Part shown: in pieces, positions 16,523 to 19,286 of the stretch
Position numbering within the stretch: position 1 is the first letter of the stretch
How the letters are laid out: every line of letters begins with the position of its first letter
Assembly: GCF_024223415.1 (NCBI RefSeq)
Contig: NZ_CP100500.1
DNA length: 64,000 nt
DNA from: Escherichia coli
GTDB taxonomy: Bacteria > Pseudomonadota > Gammaproteobacteria > Enterobacterales > Enterobacteriaceae
Direction: 5' to 3' (one strand)
Notes under the pieces: model-generated
What the model saw: the letters and a program-made list of their open reading frames with translations, nothing else
Databases searched by the model: none
Told to the model about the DNA's origin: nothing
Program-made: the position numbers and the translations under genes

Positions 16523-17293
16523 TCACTTTTCCGATACAACACGGCGGGAAGAATCAGTAATCTGTCGAACAATATCCCGGTGCTTGTTCAGCTCCCGCAG
16601 CGCGGCGCAGACTCGCTCCCACTTCTGAACATGATTTTTCGCCCGACGCAATTCGCGGTTTGCCATATGCAGCGATGGTAAAACCAGGTCATCCGCTCGG
16701 GTTTCAGTAAACGATGGCAACGATTGCACAATATCAGCCACAGTTTCTGTTTTAATATCTTCCTGTGTTGCAGCTTCCTGTACTGGTAACGCAACACCTG
16801 CTGGCTGAGGAAAGGCTTTACCATCAGTTTCCGCTACCGATGCAGACTCCGGCCCTGCCGGTAAGTTGTCGTCCGGCAGGAAGTAACGAAATTTACCGTT
16901 CCGATTAACGCGTGCCAGCCGCCCCGTTGCGGTTACTACCGCCAGTGTGGAAGCAACCTTGCGAGTGCTGACACCGAACTTACCCGCCAGTTCCTCACAC
17001 GTTTTAGCCCCCTCCTGACTGATAAACTCAATCATCATGTCTGCGGTAACTTTTTGTTCGACCTCCCCGGTCAGCATATCCTGTGCTTCAGATTTTACTG
17101 GTCGCTCTTCGGTTACCCGGGATTCACCTTCGCCAGCCAGAAACCAGGTGTGACCAGTTTTATCAACGACGCCATTTCTTTTGAGTTCCCACAGCTCGTT
17201 CAGCACTTCTTCACGACTGATATCAAGTCGCGCAGCCAGCTCTACCGATGTGGCTTTTCCCATCGCTTTCAGTGCGTCAAAAACAGTCTCCAT
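16523..17293 (-). CDS. Hypothetical DNA-binding protein with two winged-helix-like segments (256 aa)
   Basis: N-terminal LAARLDISREEVLNELWELKRNGVV and central ELAGKFGVSTRKVASTL helix-turn-helix-like stretches. Confidence 0.5.
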   Translation of the reverse strand: METVFDALKAMGKATSVELAARLDISREEVLNELWELKRNGVVDKTGHTWFLAGEGESRVTEERPVKSEAQDMLTGEVEQKVTADMMIEFISQEGAKTCEELAGKFGVSTRKVASTLAVVTATGRLARVNRNGKFRYFLPDDNLPAGPESASVAETDGKAFPQPAGVALPVQEAATQEDIKTETVADIVQSLPSFTETRADDLVLPSLHMANRELRRAKNHVQKWERVCAALRELNKHRDIVRQITDSSRRVVSEK

Positions 17294-17325: not shown

Positions 17326-17991
17326 TCAGACAAAACCAGCCGCTTTCCGGCGTTCATACTCCTGTTTCAGCAACTCAATTGGCGTTGGTCCCGACGGGCG
17401 TTTGGGGGCCGCCAGTTGTCGCCGGACTGGCGGAACGCTGAGGCCCATACCAACATGCTTTGACCATTTCGTCAGTTGCCGTTCTGCAAACCGTTTTAAC
17501 TCCCCTTCGGTCATCTGGCGTTCAATCCCCTTTGAACGCATCTCGAGGCATATGTGATACAGCACAGGCTGAGACCACGGGTATTTATCGCTTCCGTCGT
17601 ATCGCCAGGACTCATTGCGCCAGCGTCGGTACTCCTCCATCACAGCCCCCACCGTCAGACCGAATGGATTGGCCCCGCTTTCCGGAATCAGTGCCACAAA
17701 CTCAGCCAGGTCAGGAGGCCATGTTTCACCCGCCCGGCAGCGGTCCATGCACTGGCGGCAGACCTGCCGGATTTGCTGCTCAGTCATCGCGCCAATCTGT
17801 GCAATCCAGAGCTTCGAAGGTGCGGCCCCGTTCTTCCGGGTCCAGCGGTCCGAATAAACCTCCCCCATGAGTTCCCACAGCTTCCAGGCTGTTTCCGTCG
17901 CTGATAAATCCGTTTTCACGTTCCCACTGCTCACGTGCTGCCCGAATTTCCTGAACTGCCCGTGATGCGGTGCCACCTGGTGCTGCTGCAT
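17326..17991 (-). CDS. Replication protein P-like (helicase loader); start uncertain (ATG 17991, 17868 or 17787)
   Basis: C-terminal two-thirds resemble lambda P as recalled (YPWSQPVLYHICLEM vs YPWKSNAHYWLVTNL; ELKRFAERQL vs ELRRKAADEL); 17787 start overlaps O-like stop. Confidence 0.6.
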   Translation of the reverse strand: MQQHQVAPHHGQFRKFGQHVSSGNVKTDLSATETAWKLWELMGEVYSDRWTRKNGAAPSKLWIAQIGAMTEQQIRQVCRQCMDRCRAGETWPPDLAEFVALIPESGANPFGLTVGAVMEEYRRWRNESWRYDGSDKYPWSQPVLYHICLEMRSKGIERQMTEGELKRFAERQLTKWSKHVGMGLSVPPVRRQLAAPKRPSGPTPIELLKQEYERRKAAGFV

Positions 17992-18790
17992 GGTTCACCC
18001 CCTTGCTGACTGGTTTAACCTGCGCCCTGACGTGATTTACGTGACGGGCGAATTTCTGCTCCCACTGAACCTGTGTGAACACTTTCCCCTCCGCCATCCA
18101 GTAATCCCGGAAGGCGGCAAGTTCAGCAGGTGTAAATTCCGGTTCCGGCAAAGCCGCTCCCCACAACGCAGCCCGCCGTCGAAAATCCAGCGACGGATGC
18201 CAGCCATCGGCCATCGGAAATTTCCCGATGGGTTCACTCAGGCCATCCGGAAATTCAGGTTCCGCCACCTGCAACGGCGTACCGTTCGGTTCACTGGTCG
18301 GAGCACTCTCGCGCACGCGCGCGTTATGTGTGGGGTTTAATTCTTTATCTGTATCTTTATTAGTTGCCTTTGTGTTTGCGTCATGTTCAAACACCACACC
18401 AACATTTGTTTGAACACCTGTTAAATCTCTCTCTTGTTTTGTTTGAACATCTGCTTCCTTTCTGCTTCTTCTGGCCTGAACAGATGCTTTTCCGGCGGCT
18501 GATTTTTTGGTTAATTTTTCCCTGACTGATGCCAGATCTTCCTCAATCCGAAGATGCACCCATTCATCGCCGTTATCGTGAAAAAACTCCCGCAAGGATG
18601 GCTCCACATCAGCCCATCGCTCATTAGTCAGACGGGCAATTTTTGCCAGCCTGTTTTTAGGTATTGGCTTTCCTGTTTGCCAGTAATTGAACATCAGCAA
18701 CAAATACGCACCGTGCTCCTCTGCTGATAAATGCATGGTGTCAGCCAGGTAATCAGCGATGTACAGTTGCATGTATGGTAATGCGGCCAT
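17780..18790 (-). CDS. Replication initiator, DUF1376/YdaU-like (lambda O analogue) with internal iteron origin
   Basis: 336 aa; LMFNYWQTGKPIP N-terminal domain; iterons and AT-rich tract inside the coding region of a hydrophilic linker. Confidence 0.6.
   Translation of the reverse strand: MAALPYMQLYIADYLADTMHLSAEEHGAYLLLMFNYWQTGKPIPKNRLAKIARLTNERWADVEPSLREFFHDNGDEWVHLRIEEDLASVREKLTKKSAAGKASVQARRSRKEADVQTKQERDLTGVQTNVGVVFEHDANTKATNKDTDKELNPTHNARVRESAPTSEPNGTPLQVAEPEFPDGLSEPIGKFPMADGWHPSLDFRRRAALWGAALPEPEFTPAELAAFRDYWMAEGKVFTQVQWEQKFARHVNHVRAQVKPVSKGVNHAAAPGGTASRAVQEIRAAREQWERENGFISDGNSLEAVGTHGGGLFGPLDPEERGRTFEALDCTDWRDD
18384..18483. repeat. Origin-like iterons TGTTTGAACA (18407-18416, 18440-18449), inverted copy TGTTCAAACA (18384-18393), partial copy (18476-18483); adjacent AT-rich tract ~18335-18365
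   Basis: Exact 10-mer repeats read directly; arrangement mirrors lambda ori inside O. Confidence 0.5.
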
Positions 18791-18860: not shown

Positions 18861-19286
18861 TCAGTGCATCACCACAGCATTACCCGCCGGGCCACCACGA
18901 TTCATCTGATTGAAACCGGCGATTGCCACTGCGATAAAATCATCAGCGTCTCTCACCAGCCGTTCTCGTGTCTCCAGCAGCTCCCTGAAATAGGCTGAGC
19001 TGTGGCTACGCATTCTGGCCACCAGCAAAGGCGGCATTGCCTTTTCGATCGCTGGTAGTAACGCCTGAATTTTTTCAACCGCATCAGGGGTGTCTTTCTC
19101 CACCCAGCGGAAAATTTTCTGGGTATTACGGGCCAGGGCTTCCGGATGGCTGTCGTCATACAGTTCCGGGAACGTCATACCCAGCTCAAAATAAGCCCGG
19201 GTTATTTCAGCTGCCGGAACTTTTTCGCCATCCGGACGCGCCCAGGCATTCATCGCCATGCGGATGTGTTCATGCTTGATTTTCAT
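18861..19286 (-). CDS. YdaT-like protein (Rac-type, function unclear)
   Basis: 141 aa immediately downstream of cro-like gene, overlapping its stop; size and position as Rac ydaT. Confidence 0.45.
   Translation of the reverse strand: MKIKHEHIRMAMNAWARPDGEKVPAAEITRAYFELGMTFPELYDDSHPEALARNTQKIFRWVEKDTPDAVEKIQALLPAIEKAMPPLLVARMRSHSSAYFRELLETRERLVRDADDFIAVAIAGFNQMNRGGPAGNAVVMH

What the first reader, a model, noticed from the sequence alone, without database searches (positions are those of the whole stretch)
17780..17991. Long out-of-frame overlap between the O-like and P-like genes
The P-like ORF opens at ATG 17991, 212 nt before the O-like stop at 17780, and similarity to lambda P seems to extend into the overlap. 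Alternative P starts are ATG 17868 and ATG 17787; the latter overlaps the O-like stop in the usual coupling arrangement. Either the two genes share a dual-coded segment or one of them carries a frameshift or non-genuine extension.
Basis: seen in the sequence. Interest (0 to 1): 0.3.

Follow-up and report, generated by a model that had tools for sequence, protein, structure and literature searches.

The report
Replication genes sharing 212 bases
In this E. coli prophage the helicase-loader gene (a relative of lambda P) most likely starts 212 bases inside the preceding replication-initiator gene, so both proteins are read from the same DNA in two frames; the arrangement is conserved across many enterobacterial prophages, and current reference annotation cuts the loader short.

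Summary
On the minus strand a 336-aa ORF (18790-17780) and a 221-aa ORF (17991-17326) overlap by 212 nt in different frames.

The upstream gene is not a lambda O homologue. It is a DUF1376 plus DnaT-domain initiator. The downstream gene is a lambda P-type helicase loader.

Comparison with 88 close and 17 diverse loci supports a real overlap with the loader starting at ATG 17991:
- This ATG and a strong Shine-Dalgarno sequence 4-8 nt upstream are kept in all 17 diverse lineages, although the initiator-frame amino acids there vary.
- Loader residues 42-68 show loader-frame codon periodicity and about 62% identity.
- Codon 69, the RefSeq start, is CTG or TTG in 7 of 17 lineages.
- AlphaFold puts Met42 inside a confident helix, and the whole model aligns with full-length lambda P.

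The initiator frame is also maintained. It shows its own periodicity over a conserved helix, and stop-creating T is absent at 61 risk sites, against 28.5% T elsewhere.

Each frame's ordered part lies opposite the other's disordered part. Frameshift error and programmed frameshifting are unlikely. Translation was not measured. This is a modest finding and an annotation correction.

The parts
17780..18790 (-). Replication initiator gene, 336 aa. DUF1376 domain at residues 5-87 (18530-18778). DnaT DNA-binding domain at residues 191-257 (18020-18220).
   Evidence: ORF. Pfam DUF1376 E 6e-26 and DnaT E 2e-17. NCBIfam DnaT partial match. No similarity to lambda O. RefSeq name 'DUF1376 domain-containing protein'.
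17326..17991 (-). Lambda P-type helicase loader gene in its full 221-aa form, starting at ATG 17991.
   Evidence: ORF. Pfam Phage_lambda_P 54 bits. phrog_109 covers residues 19-220. AlphaFold pLDDT 79. Foldseek best hit is lambda P chain 9oa1_Z, 215 columns, E 3e-7.
17996..18004 (-). Shine-Dalgarno sequence AAGGGGGUG for the 17991 start. It lies inside the initiator gene, where it reads Lys-Gly-Val.
   Evidence: Sequence. Predicted anti-SD duplex of -11.8 kcal/mol here and -7.1 to -11.8 in all 17 lineages. The GAGG/GGAGG string is kept while the initiator-frame residues vary among GG, RG, EV, KGV and GD.
17989..17991 (-). Met1 start codon of the loader (proposed true start).
   Evidence: An ATG is present at the homologous site in 17 of 17 diverse lineages. 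The initiator-frame codon supplying 'AT' is always NAT (His, Asn, Tyr or Asp), against a background T3 of 0.475.
17780..17991 (-). The 212-nt two-frame overlap.
17915..17965 (-). Initiator-dominated part of the overlap. It encodes the initiator helix SRAVQEIRAAREQWERE (residues 276-292) and, in the other frame, loader residues about 9-26, which are predicted disordered.
   Evidence: For SRAVQEIRAAREQ (residues 276-288), the part scored, nucleotide divergence is 0.34/0.34/0.61 at initiator codon positions 1/2/3. Initiator-frame identity is 0.455, against loader-frame 0.22-0.27. The helix is predicted with pLDDT up to 86. Loader residues 1-26 have pLDDT below 50.
17783..17919 (-). Loader-dominated part of the overlap. 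It encodes loader helices 25-46, 48-54 and 60-67, which correspond to lambda P domain II. In the other frame it encodes the initiator's disordered acidic C-terminal tail (residues about 293-336).
   Evidence: Divergence at loader codon positions 1/2/3 for residues 42-68 is 0.29/0.23/0.53, as in the non-overlapped part. Loader pLDDT is 83-89. The tail has pLDDT 31-38. The initiator frame is kept open: 0 T at 61 risk sites against 125 of 438 elsewhere.
17866..17868 (-). Met42 ATG. It is an alternative start used in many 180-aa annotations and a possible second initiation site.
   Evidence: Met is present in all 19 aligned loci but lies inside predicted helix 25-46. The Shine-Dalgarno strength is variable, -3.4 to -9.8 kcal/mol. 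In L009 the initiator stop overlaps this ATG as ATGGGTGA.
17785..17787 (-). Met69 ATG within ATGACTGA. This is the start used by RefSeq for E. coli (153 aa) and is probably not the main start.
   Evidence: RefSeq annotation. The codon is CTG or TTG in 7 of 17 lineages and the upstream Shine-Dalgarno is weak, -3 to -6 kcal/mol.

Best explanation
The replication module encodes two proteins from one early-operon message. The first is an initiator with a DUF1376 domain, a DnaT-like DNA-binding domain, and a C-terminal helix followed by an acidic tail. The second is a lambda P-type loader for the host DnaB helicase.

The loader gene starts at ATG 17991, inside the initiator gene and in its +1 frame. 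It uses its own Shine-Dalgarno sequence (18004-17996), which the initiator frame reads as Lys-Gly-Val. The next 212 nt are translated in both frames.

The constraint is partitioned along the overlap:
- The upstream part (about 17915-17965) is shaped by the initiator's conserved helix. There it also supplies most of the loader's disordered N-terminal segment, which corresponds to the domain I 'lasso' of lambda P.
- The downstream part (17783-17919) is shaped by the loader's domain II helices. There it also supplies the initiator's disordered acidic tail, whose reading frame is kept free of stops.

Shown here: both ORFs, their conservation, the conserved start signals, the frame-specific substitution patterns, the stop avoidance, and the fold.

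Inferred, not shown:
- That both products are actually made from these starts.
- That the initiator's overlap-encoded C-terminus is the part that contacts the loader. This would explain why it always travels with the loader gene while the rest of the initiator is swapped.
- That ribosome traffic on the initiator frame influences loader initiation.
For: Start signals. An ATG at the Met1 site and a GGAGGT-like Shine-Dalgarno sequence 4-8 nt upstream are present in all 17 diverse lineages (50-75% identity) within an otherwise variable linker. Predicted duplex energies are -7.1 to -11.8 kcal/mol. The nucleotide string is kept while the initiator-frame amino acids change, and the codon holding 'AT' is NAT in 17 of 17.

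Loader frame coding upstream of Met69. Residues 42-68 show 62% identity, the same as the core. Codon-position divergence is 0.29/0.23/0.53 against 0.31/0.22/0.60 in the non-overlapped part. Polymorphism in close E. coli loci concentrates at loader third positions. Codon 69 is not a start codon in 7 of 17 lineages.

Fold. Residues 1-26 are disordered, helix 25-46 spans Met42, and helices 48-54 and 60-67 precede Met69. Foldseek aligns 215 columns with full-length lambda P. The lambda P domains are I 1-29, II about 30-119, III 120-192 and IV 193-233 (PMC12661323).

Initiator frame. It shows its own periodicity, 0.34/0.34/0.61, over the conserved helix. Its tail avoids stops: 0 of 61 risk codons end in T, against 125 of 438 in the non-overlapped part. 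Simulated chance of staying open is 0.11-0.36 per sequence, yet 15 of 17 are open. A control gave 143 stops observed against 141.5 expected. L009, whose initiator ends early, does carry T at two such sites.

Stability. 87 of 88 close loci are intact, and all indels in the overlap are multiples of three. Overlaps of 113-224 nt occur behind initiators with DUF1376, HTH_36, Phage_rep_O or no recognised N-terminal domain.
Against: - No expression data were available. Nothing shows which start is used.
- Loader residues 2-36 are poorly conserved (22-27% identity) and evolve with the initiator's periodicity, so they carry no sign of selection on the loader protein itself.
- The loader frame staying open from Met1 to Met42 is only moderately unlikely by chance (0.3-0.78 per sequence).
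- Met42 is present in every aligned locus, has a good Shine-Dalgarno sequence in some lineages, and sits on the initiator stop in L009. It could be the main start or a second one.
- Across the diverse set, synonymous divergence at loader third positions in the overlap equals that outside it (0.526 vs 0.545). The tail's amino-acid sequence is therefore barely constrained beyond staying open.
- Lineages are not independent, so the simple probabilities overstate significance.
- NCBI's pipeline prefers the 153-aa or 180-aa forms.
Confidence: 0.68

Rival explanations
1. The loader starts at Met42 (ATG 17868, 180 aa). The real overlap is then 89 nt, and the open frame upstream to 17991 is not translated as loader.
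For: Met42 is present in every aligned locus. Sequence conservation in the loader frame begins only at about residue 37. In L009 the initiator stop overlaps this ATG in a coupling arrangement, ATGGGTGA. PGAP uses this start in Citrobacter, Klebsiella, Brenneria and Pectobacterium, and for 391 contigs carrying this exact protein. Some lineages have a -9.6 to -9.8 kcal/mol Shine-Dalgarno sequence here.
Against: It leaves unexplained the nucleotide-level conservation of a strong Shine-Dalgarno sequence plus ATG at Met1 in 17 of 17 lineages. In most lineages the Shine-Dalgarno at Met42 is weak, including -4.2 kcal/mol in this window. Met42 lies in the middle of a confident predicted helix, and Trp37 and Trp40 upstream of it are conserved. 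The 221-aa form is collinear with lambda P from end to end.
Confidence: 0.2
2. The RefSeq model is right. The loader starts at Met69 (ATG 17787, 153 aa), coupled to the initiator stop by ATGACTGA, and the upstream open frame is a non-genuine extension.
For: RefSeq/PGAP annotates it this way in E. coli, as does the Rac-SA53 phage record. The ATGACTGA arrangement is the classical coupling pattern. It is the commonest annotation of this exact protein, at 951 contigs.
Against: Codon 69 is CTG or TTG in 7 of 17 lineages and has a weak Shine-Dalgarno sequence. Residues 42-68 have loader-frame periodicity and 62% identity. In L009 this segment is not overlapped at all and is still conserved. A 153-aa protein would lack domain I and roughly half of the domain II equivalent.
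Confidence: 0.05
3. The overlap is an artefact or a decay product: a sequencing frameshift, or a pseudogene in a defective prophage.
For: One of 88 close loci (L013) has a premature stop in the loader. Sporadic fused or truncated proteins exist in databases (P0058, P0015).
Against: The same two-frame arrangement is found in 87 of 88 close loci and across at least ten genera. P0058 is an internal deletion, not a frameshift. Both frames show purifying selection.
Confidence: 0.02
4. A programmed +1 ribosomal frameshift within the overlap produces an initiator-loader fusion protein, in addition to or instead of separate initiation.
For: The loader frame is +1 relative to the initiator frame. PHROG 15931, a 482-position profile, matches both proteins in series. 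An internal Shine-Dalgarno-like element can stimulate +1 shifting, as in prfB (own knowledge).
Against: A Shine-Dalgarno sequence at the correct spacing before a conserved ATG is explained most simply as an initiation site. There is no Rfam match. RNA folding around the site is unremarkable, z = -0.67. The overlap length and sequence vary widely. No conserved shift-prone site was noticed in the start-region sequences, though none was searched for systematically.
Confidence: 0.03

Closest known systems
Phage lambda O-P replication module
   Same: The gene order is the same: an initiator followed by a DnaB helicase loader in the early rightward operon. The loader is a true lambda P homologue by Pfam, by fold, and by collinearity over about 215 of 221 residues. 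As with lambda O, where the C-terminal domain binds P (own knowledge), the initiator's C-terminal part stays with the loader while other parts are exchanged.
   Different: Lambda O and P overlap by 4 nt (ATGA), whereas here the overlap is 212 nt. The initiator in this window is not an O homologue. In lambda the whole N-terminal part of P is encoded downstream of the O stop.
DopC-DopE pair and its phage ancestors (Brezellec et al. 2017, PMC5509034)
   Same: An initiator-like protein carrying a DnaT C-terminal domain (HTH_36 + DnaT_C) is followed by a PF06992 P-like protein. Locus L103 here has exactly the HTH_36 + DnaT architecture.
   Different: That paper does not mention a gene overlap (0 occurrences of the word). 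DopCE is proposed there as a domesticated chromosomal system, whereas this one is in a prophage.
Escherichia phage Rac-SA53 ydaU/ydaV (KU052037) and RefSeq 'DUF1376 domain-containing protein / replication protein P' pairs
   Same: They carry the same genes at 94-99.5% nucleotide identity.
   Different: They are annotated with an 8-nt overlap and a 153-aa loader. Other public records give the identical DNA a 180-aa or 221-aa loader.
Known long same-strand gene overlaps in phages, such as phiX174 overlapping genes and lambda Rz/Rz1 (own knowledge; reviews PMC8227390 and PMC6195259 listed)
   Same: Two proteins are read out of phase from one strand. One frame dominates the constraint locally, and the other product is disordered there.
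   Different: This is a partial, tail-to-head overlap between two interacting replication proteins, and the dominant frame switches midway. It is not one gene nested inside another.

Membership tests
Lambda P-type helicase loader (Pfam PF06992, PHROG 109) | Sequence match to the family profile above the curated threshold | tested here: met
   PF06992 scores 54 bits against a cutoff of 26, over residues 60-188. phrog_109 E 4e-59 over residues 19-220.
Lambda P-type helicase loader (Pfam PF06992, PHROG 109) | Fold and domain order of lambda P: N-terminal lasso, domain II, domain III, C-terminal lasso | tested here: met
   AlphaFold model with pLDDT 79. Foldseek best hits are lambda P chains 9oa1_Z/Y/V, E 3e-7, 215 columns, TM 0.50. 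Domain limits come from PMC12661323.
Lambda P-type helicase loader (Pfam PF06992, PHROG 109) | Binds and loads host DnaB | not testable with these tools
   Requires biochemistry.
Lambda O-type initiator (Pfam Phage_rep_O PF04492) | Phage_rep_O N-terminal domain or overall similarity to lambda O | tested here: not met
   The window protein has no PF04492 hit. BLASTP against lambda O finds nothing, best E 0.25 over 6 residues. A related locus, L102, does have PF04492 in front of the same loader cassette.
DUF1376/DnaT-domain phage initiator ('primosomal protein', YdaU-like) | DUF1376 domain and DnaT DNA-binding domain | tested here: met
   PF07120 E 6e-26 and PF17948 E 2e-17. phrog_3992 'primosomal protein' E 2e-111 over the full length.
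DUF1376/DnaT-domain phage initiator ('primosomal protein', YdaU-like) | Origin with repeats inside or next to the initiator gene | tested here: inconclusive
   Three copies of TGTTCAAACA and a dip in GC content to 0.35 lie at 18350-18450. Their conservation and any binding were not tested.
Genuine same-strand overlapping gene pair (dual coding) | Both frames stay open across divergent relatives more often than chance allows | tested here: met
   Initiator frame: 0 of 61 risk codons end in T against 28.5% elsewhere, 15 of 17 are open where about 0.2 each is expected, and the control is calibrated. Loader frame: 17 of 17 are open at 0.3-0.78 each, which is weaker evidence.
Genuine same-strand overlapping gene pair (dual coding) | The downstream gene has its own conserved translation start signals inside the upstream gene | tested here: met
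   The Shine-Dalgarno sequence and ATG are conserved at nucleotide level in 17 of 17 lineages.
Genuine same-strand overlapping gene pair (dual coding) | Purifying selection on each product within the overlap | tested here: met
   The selection is partitioned. Initiator periodicity is seen over the helix block and loader periodicity over residues 42-68. No segment shows clear simultaneous amino-acid constraint on both frames.
Genuine same-strand overlapping gene pair (dual coding) | Both products shown to be translated from the overlap | not testable with these tools
   Requires ribosome profiling, proteomics or reporter fusions.
Programmed ribosomal frameshift site | Conserved shift site with a stimulatory element | tested here: inconclusive
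   No Rfam match and no unusual RNA structure, z = -0.67. No conserved shift-prone site was noticed in the start-region sequences, but +1 sites have no universal motif and no systematic scan was run.

The most novel reading that the evidence does not exclude
The overlap may be a two-way overprinted interaction cassette. The loader gene would carry, in its alternative frame, the peptide (a helix plus an acidic tail) through which any initiator recruits that loader. An origin-binding domain that recombines in frame just upstream of the loader's ribosome-binding site would then automatically gain a matched loader-docking C-terminus. Ribosomes translating the initiator frame across the loader's start site would also set the initiator-to-loader ratio.
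Probability: 0.2. Interest if true: 0.55.

Novelty: new member of a known kind. Interest (0 to 1): 0.38.

Why it matters
Long out-of-frame overlaps are routinely suppressed by bacterial annotation pipelines. Here the same DNA is given a 153-aa, 180-aa or 221-aa loader in different public records. The commonest version, which RefSeq uses for E. coli, removes the equivalent of lambda P domain I and about half of domain II. Anyone cloning or modelling this loader from that annotation would work with a truncated protein.

Biologically, the locus is a clean and widespread case in which constraint switches from one frame to the other midway through an overlap. It also suggests why the initiator's C-terminus and the loader are inherited as one unit in mosaic prophages. 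The module is common: 1,908 of 5,426 complete E. coli genomes match part of it and 195 match most of it. Its relatives include Stx-phage-associated prophages.

Tried and rejected
- **Direct sequence test of lambda P similarity in the overlap.** BLASTP and hhalign with a profile lacking lambda P align only the domain III region. The hmmsearch alignment is circular, because lambda P was in the profile, so it is not used as evidence.
- **Reduced synonymous divergence in the overlap.** This would signal constraint on both frames, but the diverse set shows none (0.526 vs 0.545). The threefold lower diversity in the close set may reflect mosaic recombination and is not relied on.
- **G enrichment at loader third positions as a coding signal for the initiator frame.** It is significant when pooled. 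However, it also appears in L009, which lacks the tail, so it reflects Trp, Met and Lys content. Rejected.
- **Resemblance of the initiator tail to the lambda O tail** (...LDCTDWRDD vs ...LDLTNTDWIYGVDL). The tail motif is dictated by the loader's conserved WIAQIG, and Trp alternates with Arg among lineages. Probably coincidence.
- **AlphaFold of initiator tail + Gly-Ser linker + loader**. It predicts a confident helix and a disordered tail. The tool returns no contacts, so binding could not be assessed.
- **Database fusion proteins as evidence of frameshifting.** P0058 is an internal deletion.
- **Literature searches** for this overlap or for DUF1376 together with P. Nothing describes it.
- **Rfam scan and RNA folding around the start**. 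Nothing found.

Full report
**What is there.** The genes lie on the minus strand. A 336-aa ORF runs from 18790 to 17780, and a 221-aa ORF runs from 17991 to 17326. They share 212 nt (17780-17991). The downstream frame is the upstream frame +1. In-frame ATGs lie at 17991 (Met1), 17868 (Met42) and 17787 (Met69). ATG 17787 sits in ATGACTGA across the upstream stop.

**What the genes are.**
- The upstream protein has a DUF1376 domain (residues 5-87) and a DnaT DNA-binding domain (residues 191-257). It matches the PHROG 'primosomal protein' family over its full length. It has no detectable similarity to lambda O, so it is 'O-like' only by position.
- The downstream protein is a lambda P-type helicase loader. 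Pfam PF06992 covers residues 60-188, and phrog_109 'P-like helicase loader' covers residues 19-220.
- The neighbours are typical of the early region of a lambdoid or Rac-like prophage: a YdaT-family gene upstream and DUF1627 downstream.

**How it is annotated elsewhere.**
- RefSeq E. coli genomes with 90.5-99.5% identical DNA, and phage Rac-SA53, annotate a 153-aa loader from Met69 with an 8-nt overlap.
- In other genera PGAP annotates 179-181-aa loaders from the Met42 equivalent. Other records hold 215-223-aa forms.
- For exactly this window's sequence, all three lengths exist in public records: 221 aa on 38 contigs, 180 aa on 391 and 153 aa on 951.

**Not an artefact.** I collected 80 close viral loci, 17 diverse genome loci and several genomic contexts. 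Of 88 close loci, 87 keep both ORFs with a 212-nt or 209-nt overlap, the difference being one in-frame codon. One locus has a premature stop in the loader. In 17 diverse lineages (50-75% loader identity, at least ten genera) the two genes overlap by 113-224 nt.

**The loader frame is coding upstream of Met69.**
- Residues 37-68 (W..W..MGEIYS.RWT.KNGA.PS.LWIAQIG) are conserved in the loader frame. Mean identity for residues 42-68 is 0.62, the same as the core.
- Nucleotide divergence by loader codon position is 0.29/0.23/0.53 there, against 0.31/0.22/0.60 downstream of the overlap.
- In close E. coli loci, polymorphism in this segment concentrates at loader third positions (0.61 per site, against 0.14 and 0.17).
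- In the Symbiopectobacterium locus L009 the initiator stops 5 nt after the Met42 ATG. The Met42-to-Met69 segment is not overlapped there, yet it is still conserved.
- Codon 69 is CTG or TTG in 7 of 17 lineages and has no Shine-Dalgarno sequence.

**Met1 is the best-supported start.**
- Every one of the 17 lineages has an ATG at the homologous site, preceded at 4-8 nt by GGAGGT or a close variant. The surrounding linker sequence is highly variable.
- Predicted anti-Shine-Dalgarno duplexes are -7.1 to -11.8 kcal/mol at Met1 in all 17. They are -3.4 to -9.8 at Met42 and -3 to -6 at position 69.
- In the initiator frame the Shine-Dalgarno string is read as Gly-Gly, Arg-Gly, Glu-Val, Lys-Gly-Val or Gly-Asp. 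The nucleotides are kept, not the amino acids.
- The codon supplying 'AT' of the ATG is always NAT (His, Asn, Tyr or Asp), against a background third-position T of 0.475.
- AlphaFold with 77 sequences (pLDDT 79) predicts residues 1-26 as disordered, a helix at 25-46 running through Met42, and further helices at 48-54 and 60-67.
- The best structural match is full-length lambda P bound to DnaB (9oa1 chain Z), with 215 aligned columns and E 3e-7.
- Published lambda P domains are I (1-29, a lasso disordered in solution), II (about 30-119), III (120-192) and IV (193-233) (PMC12661323). The 221-aa form matches that layout. A 153-aa form would lack domain I and about half of domain II.
- Sequence-only comparison with lambda P does not itself reach into the overlap.

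**The initiator frame is also maintained.**
- Over the conserved helix, scored on SRAVQEIRAAREQ (initiator residues 276-288, part of the SRAVQEIRAAREQWERE helix at 17915-17965), divergence is 0.34/0.34/0.61 at initiator codon positions 1/2/3. The initiator frame sets the constraint there. Identity over a slightly wider block that includes this helix is 0.455 in the initiator frame, against 0.22-0.27 for loader residues 2-36.
- Downstream, the initiator tail lies opposite loader domain II. There, loader third positions diverge as fast as outside the overlap (0.526 vs 0.545), so the tail's amino-acid sequence is mostly dictated by the loader.
- The tail's reading frame is nevertheless protected. 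Codons that would create a stop in the initiator frame by ending in T number 61 across the tail-bearing lineages, and none ends in T. The rate in the non-overlapped part is 125 of 438.
- Simulated synonymous recoding keeps the frame open with probability 0.11-0.36 per sequence, yet 15 of 17 are open.
- The same simulation reproduces the stop count in the non-overlapped part (143 observed, 141.5 expected).
- L009, whose initiator ends early, carries T at two of these sites.
- In a fused AlphaFold model the initiator helix is confident (pLDDT up to 86) and the tail is disordered (pLDDT 31-38).

**Picture.** Each frame's ordered segment lies opposite the other's disordered segment, and the dominant frame switches at about 17915-17919.

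The body of the initiator is mosaic across lineages. Its N-terminal domain is DUF1376, HTH_36, Phage_rep_O or unrecognised, and the DnaT domain may be present or absent. Similarity between lineages resumes at the loader's Shine-Dalgarno sequence. The last 36-76 initiator residues therefore travel with the loader gene.

I infer, but have not shown, that this C-terminus is the loader-docking part of the initiator. [quoted passage not shown]

**Rivals.**
- A Met42 start, alone or in addition to Met1, cannot be excluded (confidence 0.2).
- A Met69 start is unlikely (0.05).
- A sequencing artefact or pseudogene is very unlikely (0.02).
- A programmed +1 frameshift has no specific support (0.03). 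There is no Rfam hit, no unusual RNA structure, and a database 'fusion' is an internal deletion.

**Known or new.** The P-like loader, DnaT-domain initiators and their pairing are known (PMC5509034). Long out-of-phase overlaps are a known kind in phages. I found no description of this particular overlap, and annotation is inconsistent.

I rate it a new member of a known kind with modest interest. Its main value is as an annotation correction and a tidy example of partitioned dual coding. The chief limitation is that translation from either frame was not observed, and the lineages compared are not statistically independent.

Noticed in passing
window 18350-18450: Inside the initiator gene, between the DUF1376 and DnaT domains, GC content drops to 0.35. 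The 10-mer TGTTCAAACA occurs three times there (18384-18393, inverted at 18407-18416, and within 18435-18450). This resembles an origin with iterons embedded in the initiator gene, as in lambda ori within O.
   Followed up: partly
window 17326-17991, with public records for the same sequence: The identical loader DNA is annotated with three different starts in public databases: 221 aa (38 contigs), 180 aa (391 contigs) and 153 aa (951 contigs). RefSeq E. coli records use the shortest form.
   Followed up: yes
L102, L103, L009, L010, L106 (initiator genes upstream of the loader): The same loader cassette sits behind initiators with quite different N-terminal domains: Phage_rep_O, HTH_36, DUF1376 or none recognised. 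The DnaT domain may be present or absent. The mosaic junction falls at the loader's ribosome-binding site.
   Followed up: partly
L013 (IMGVR_UViG_2671180296_000011), loader codon 52: This is the only one of 88 close loci with a premature stop in the loader frame (...NRWT*). It may be a decaying prophage or a sequencing error.
   Followed up: no
L001 (phage Rac-SA53) 2466-3536: The initiator is annotated 20 codons longer at its N-terminus (MLFVLIVSHRAASYGAIMAALPYMQ...) than the MAALPYMQ start used in RefSeq and present in this window. That start is probably over-extended.
   Followed up: no
PHROG 15931; protein P0058; protein cluster: A 482-position PHROG profile matches the initiator and the loader in series. 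A 90% identity cluster also lumps the two unrelated proteins together. Both suggest that fused or mis-called initiator-loader proteins exist in databases. The one fusion inspected (P0058) is an internal deletion joining ...AALPE to SGANPFG....
   Followed up: partly
window 16523-17293 and 18861-19286: The flanking genes are a DUF1627 protein with several weak helix-turn-helix matches (downstream) and a YdaT-toxin-family protein (upstream). The 3' neighbour differs between otherwise near-identical prophages: L003 has DUF977 directly after the loader, while L004 has DUF1627 and then DUF977.
   Followed up: no
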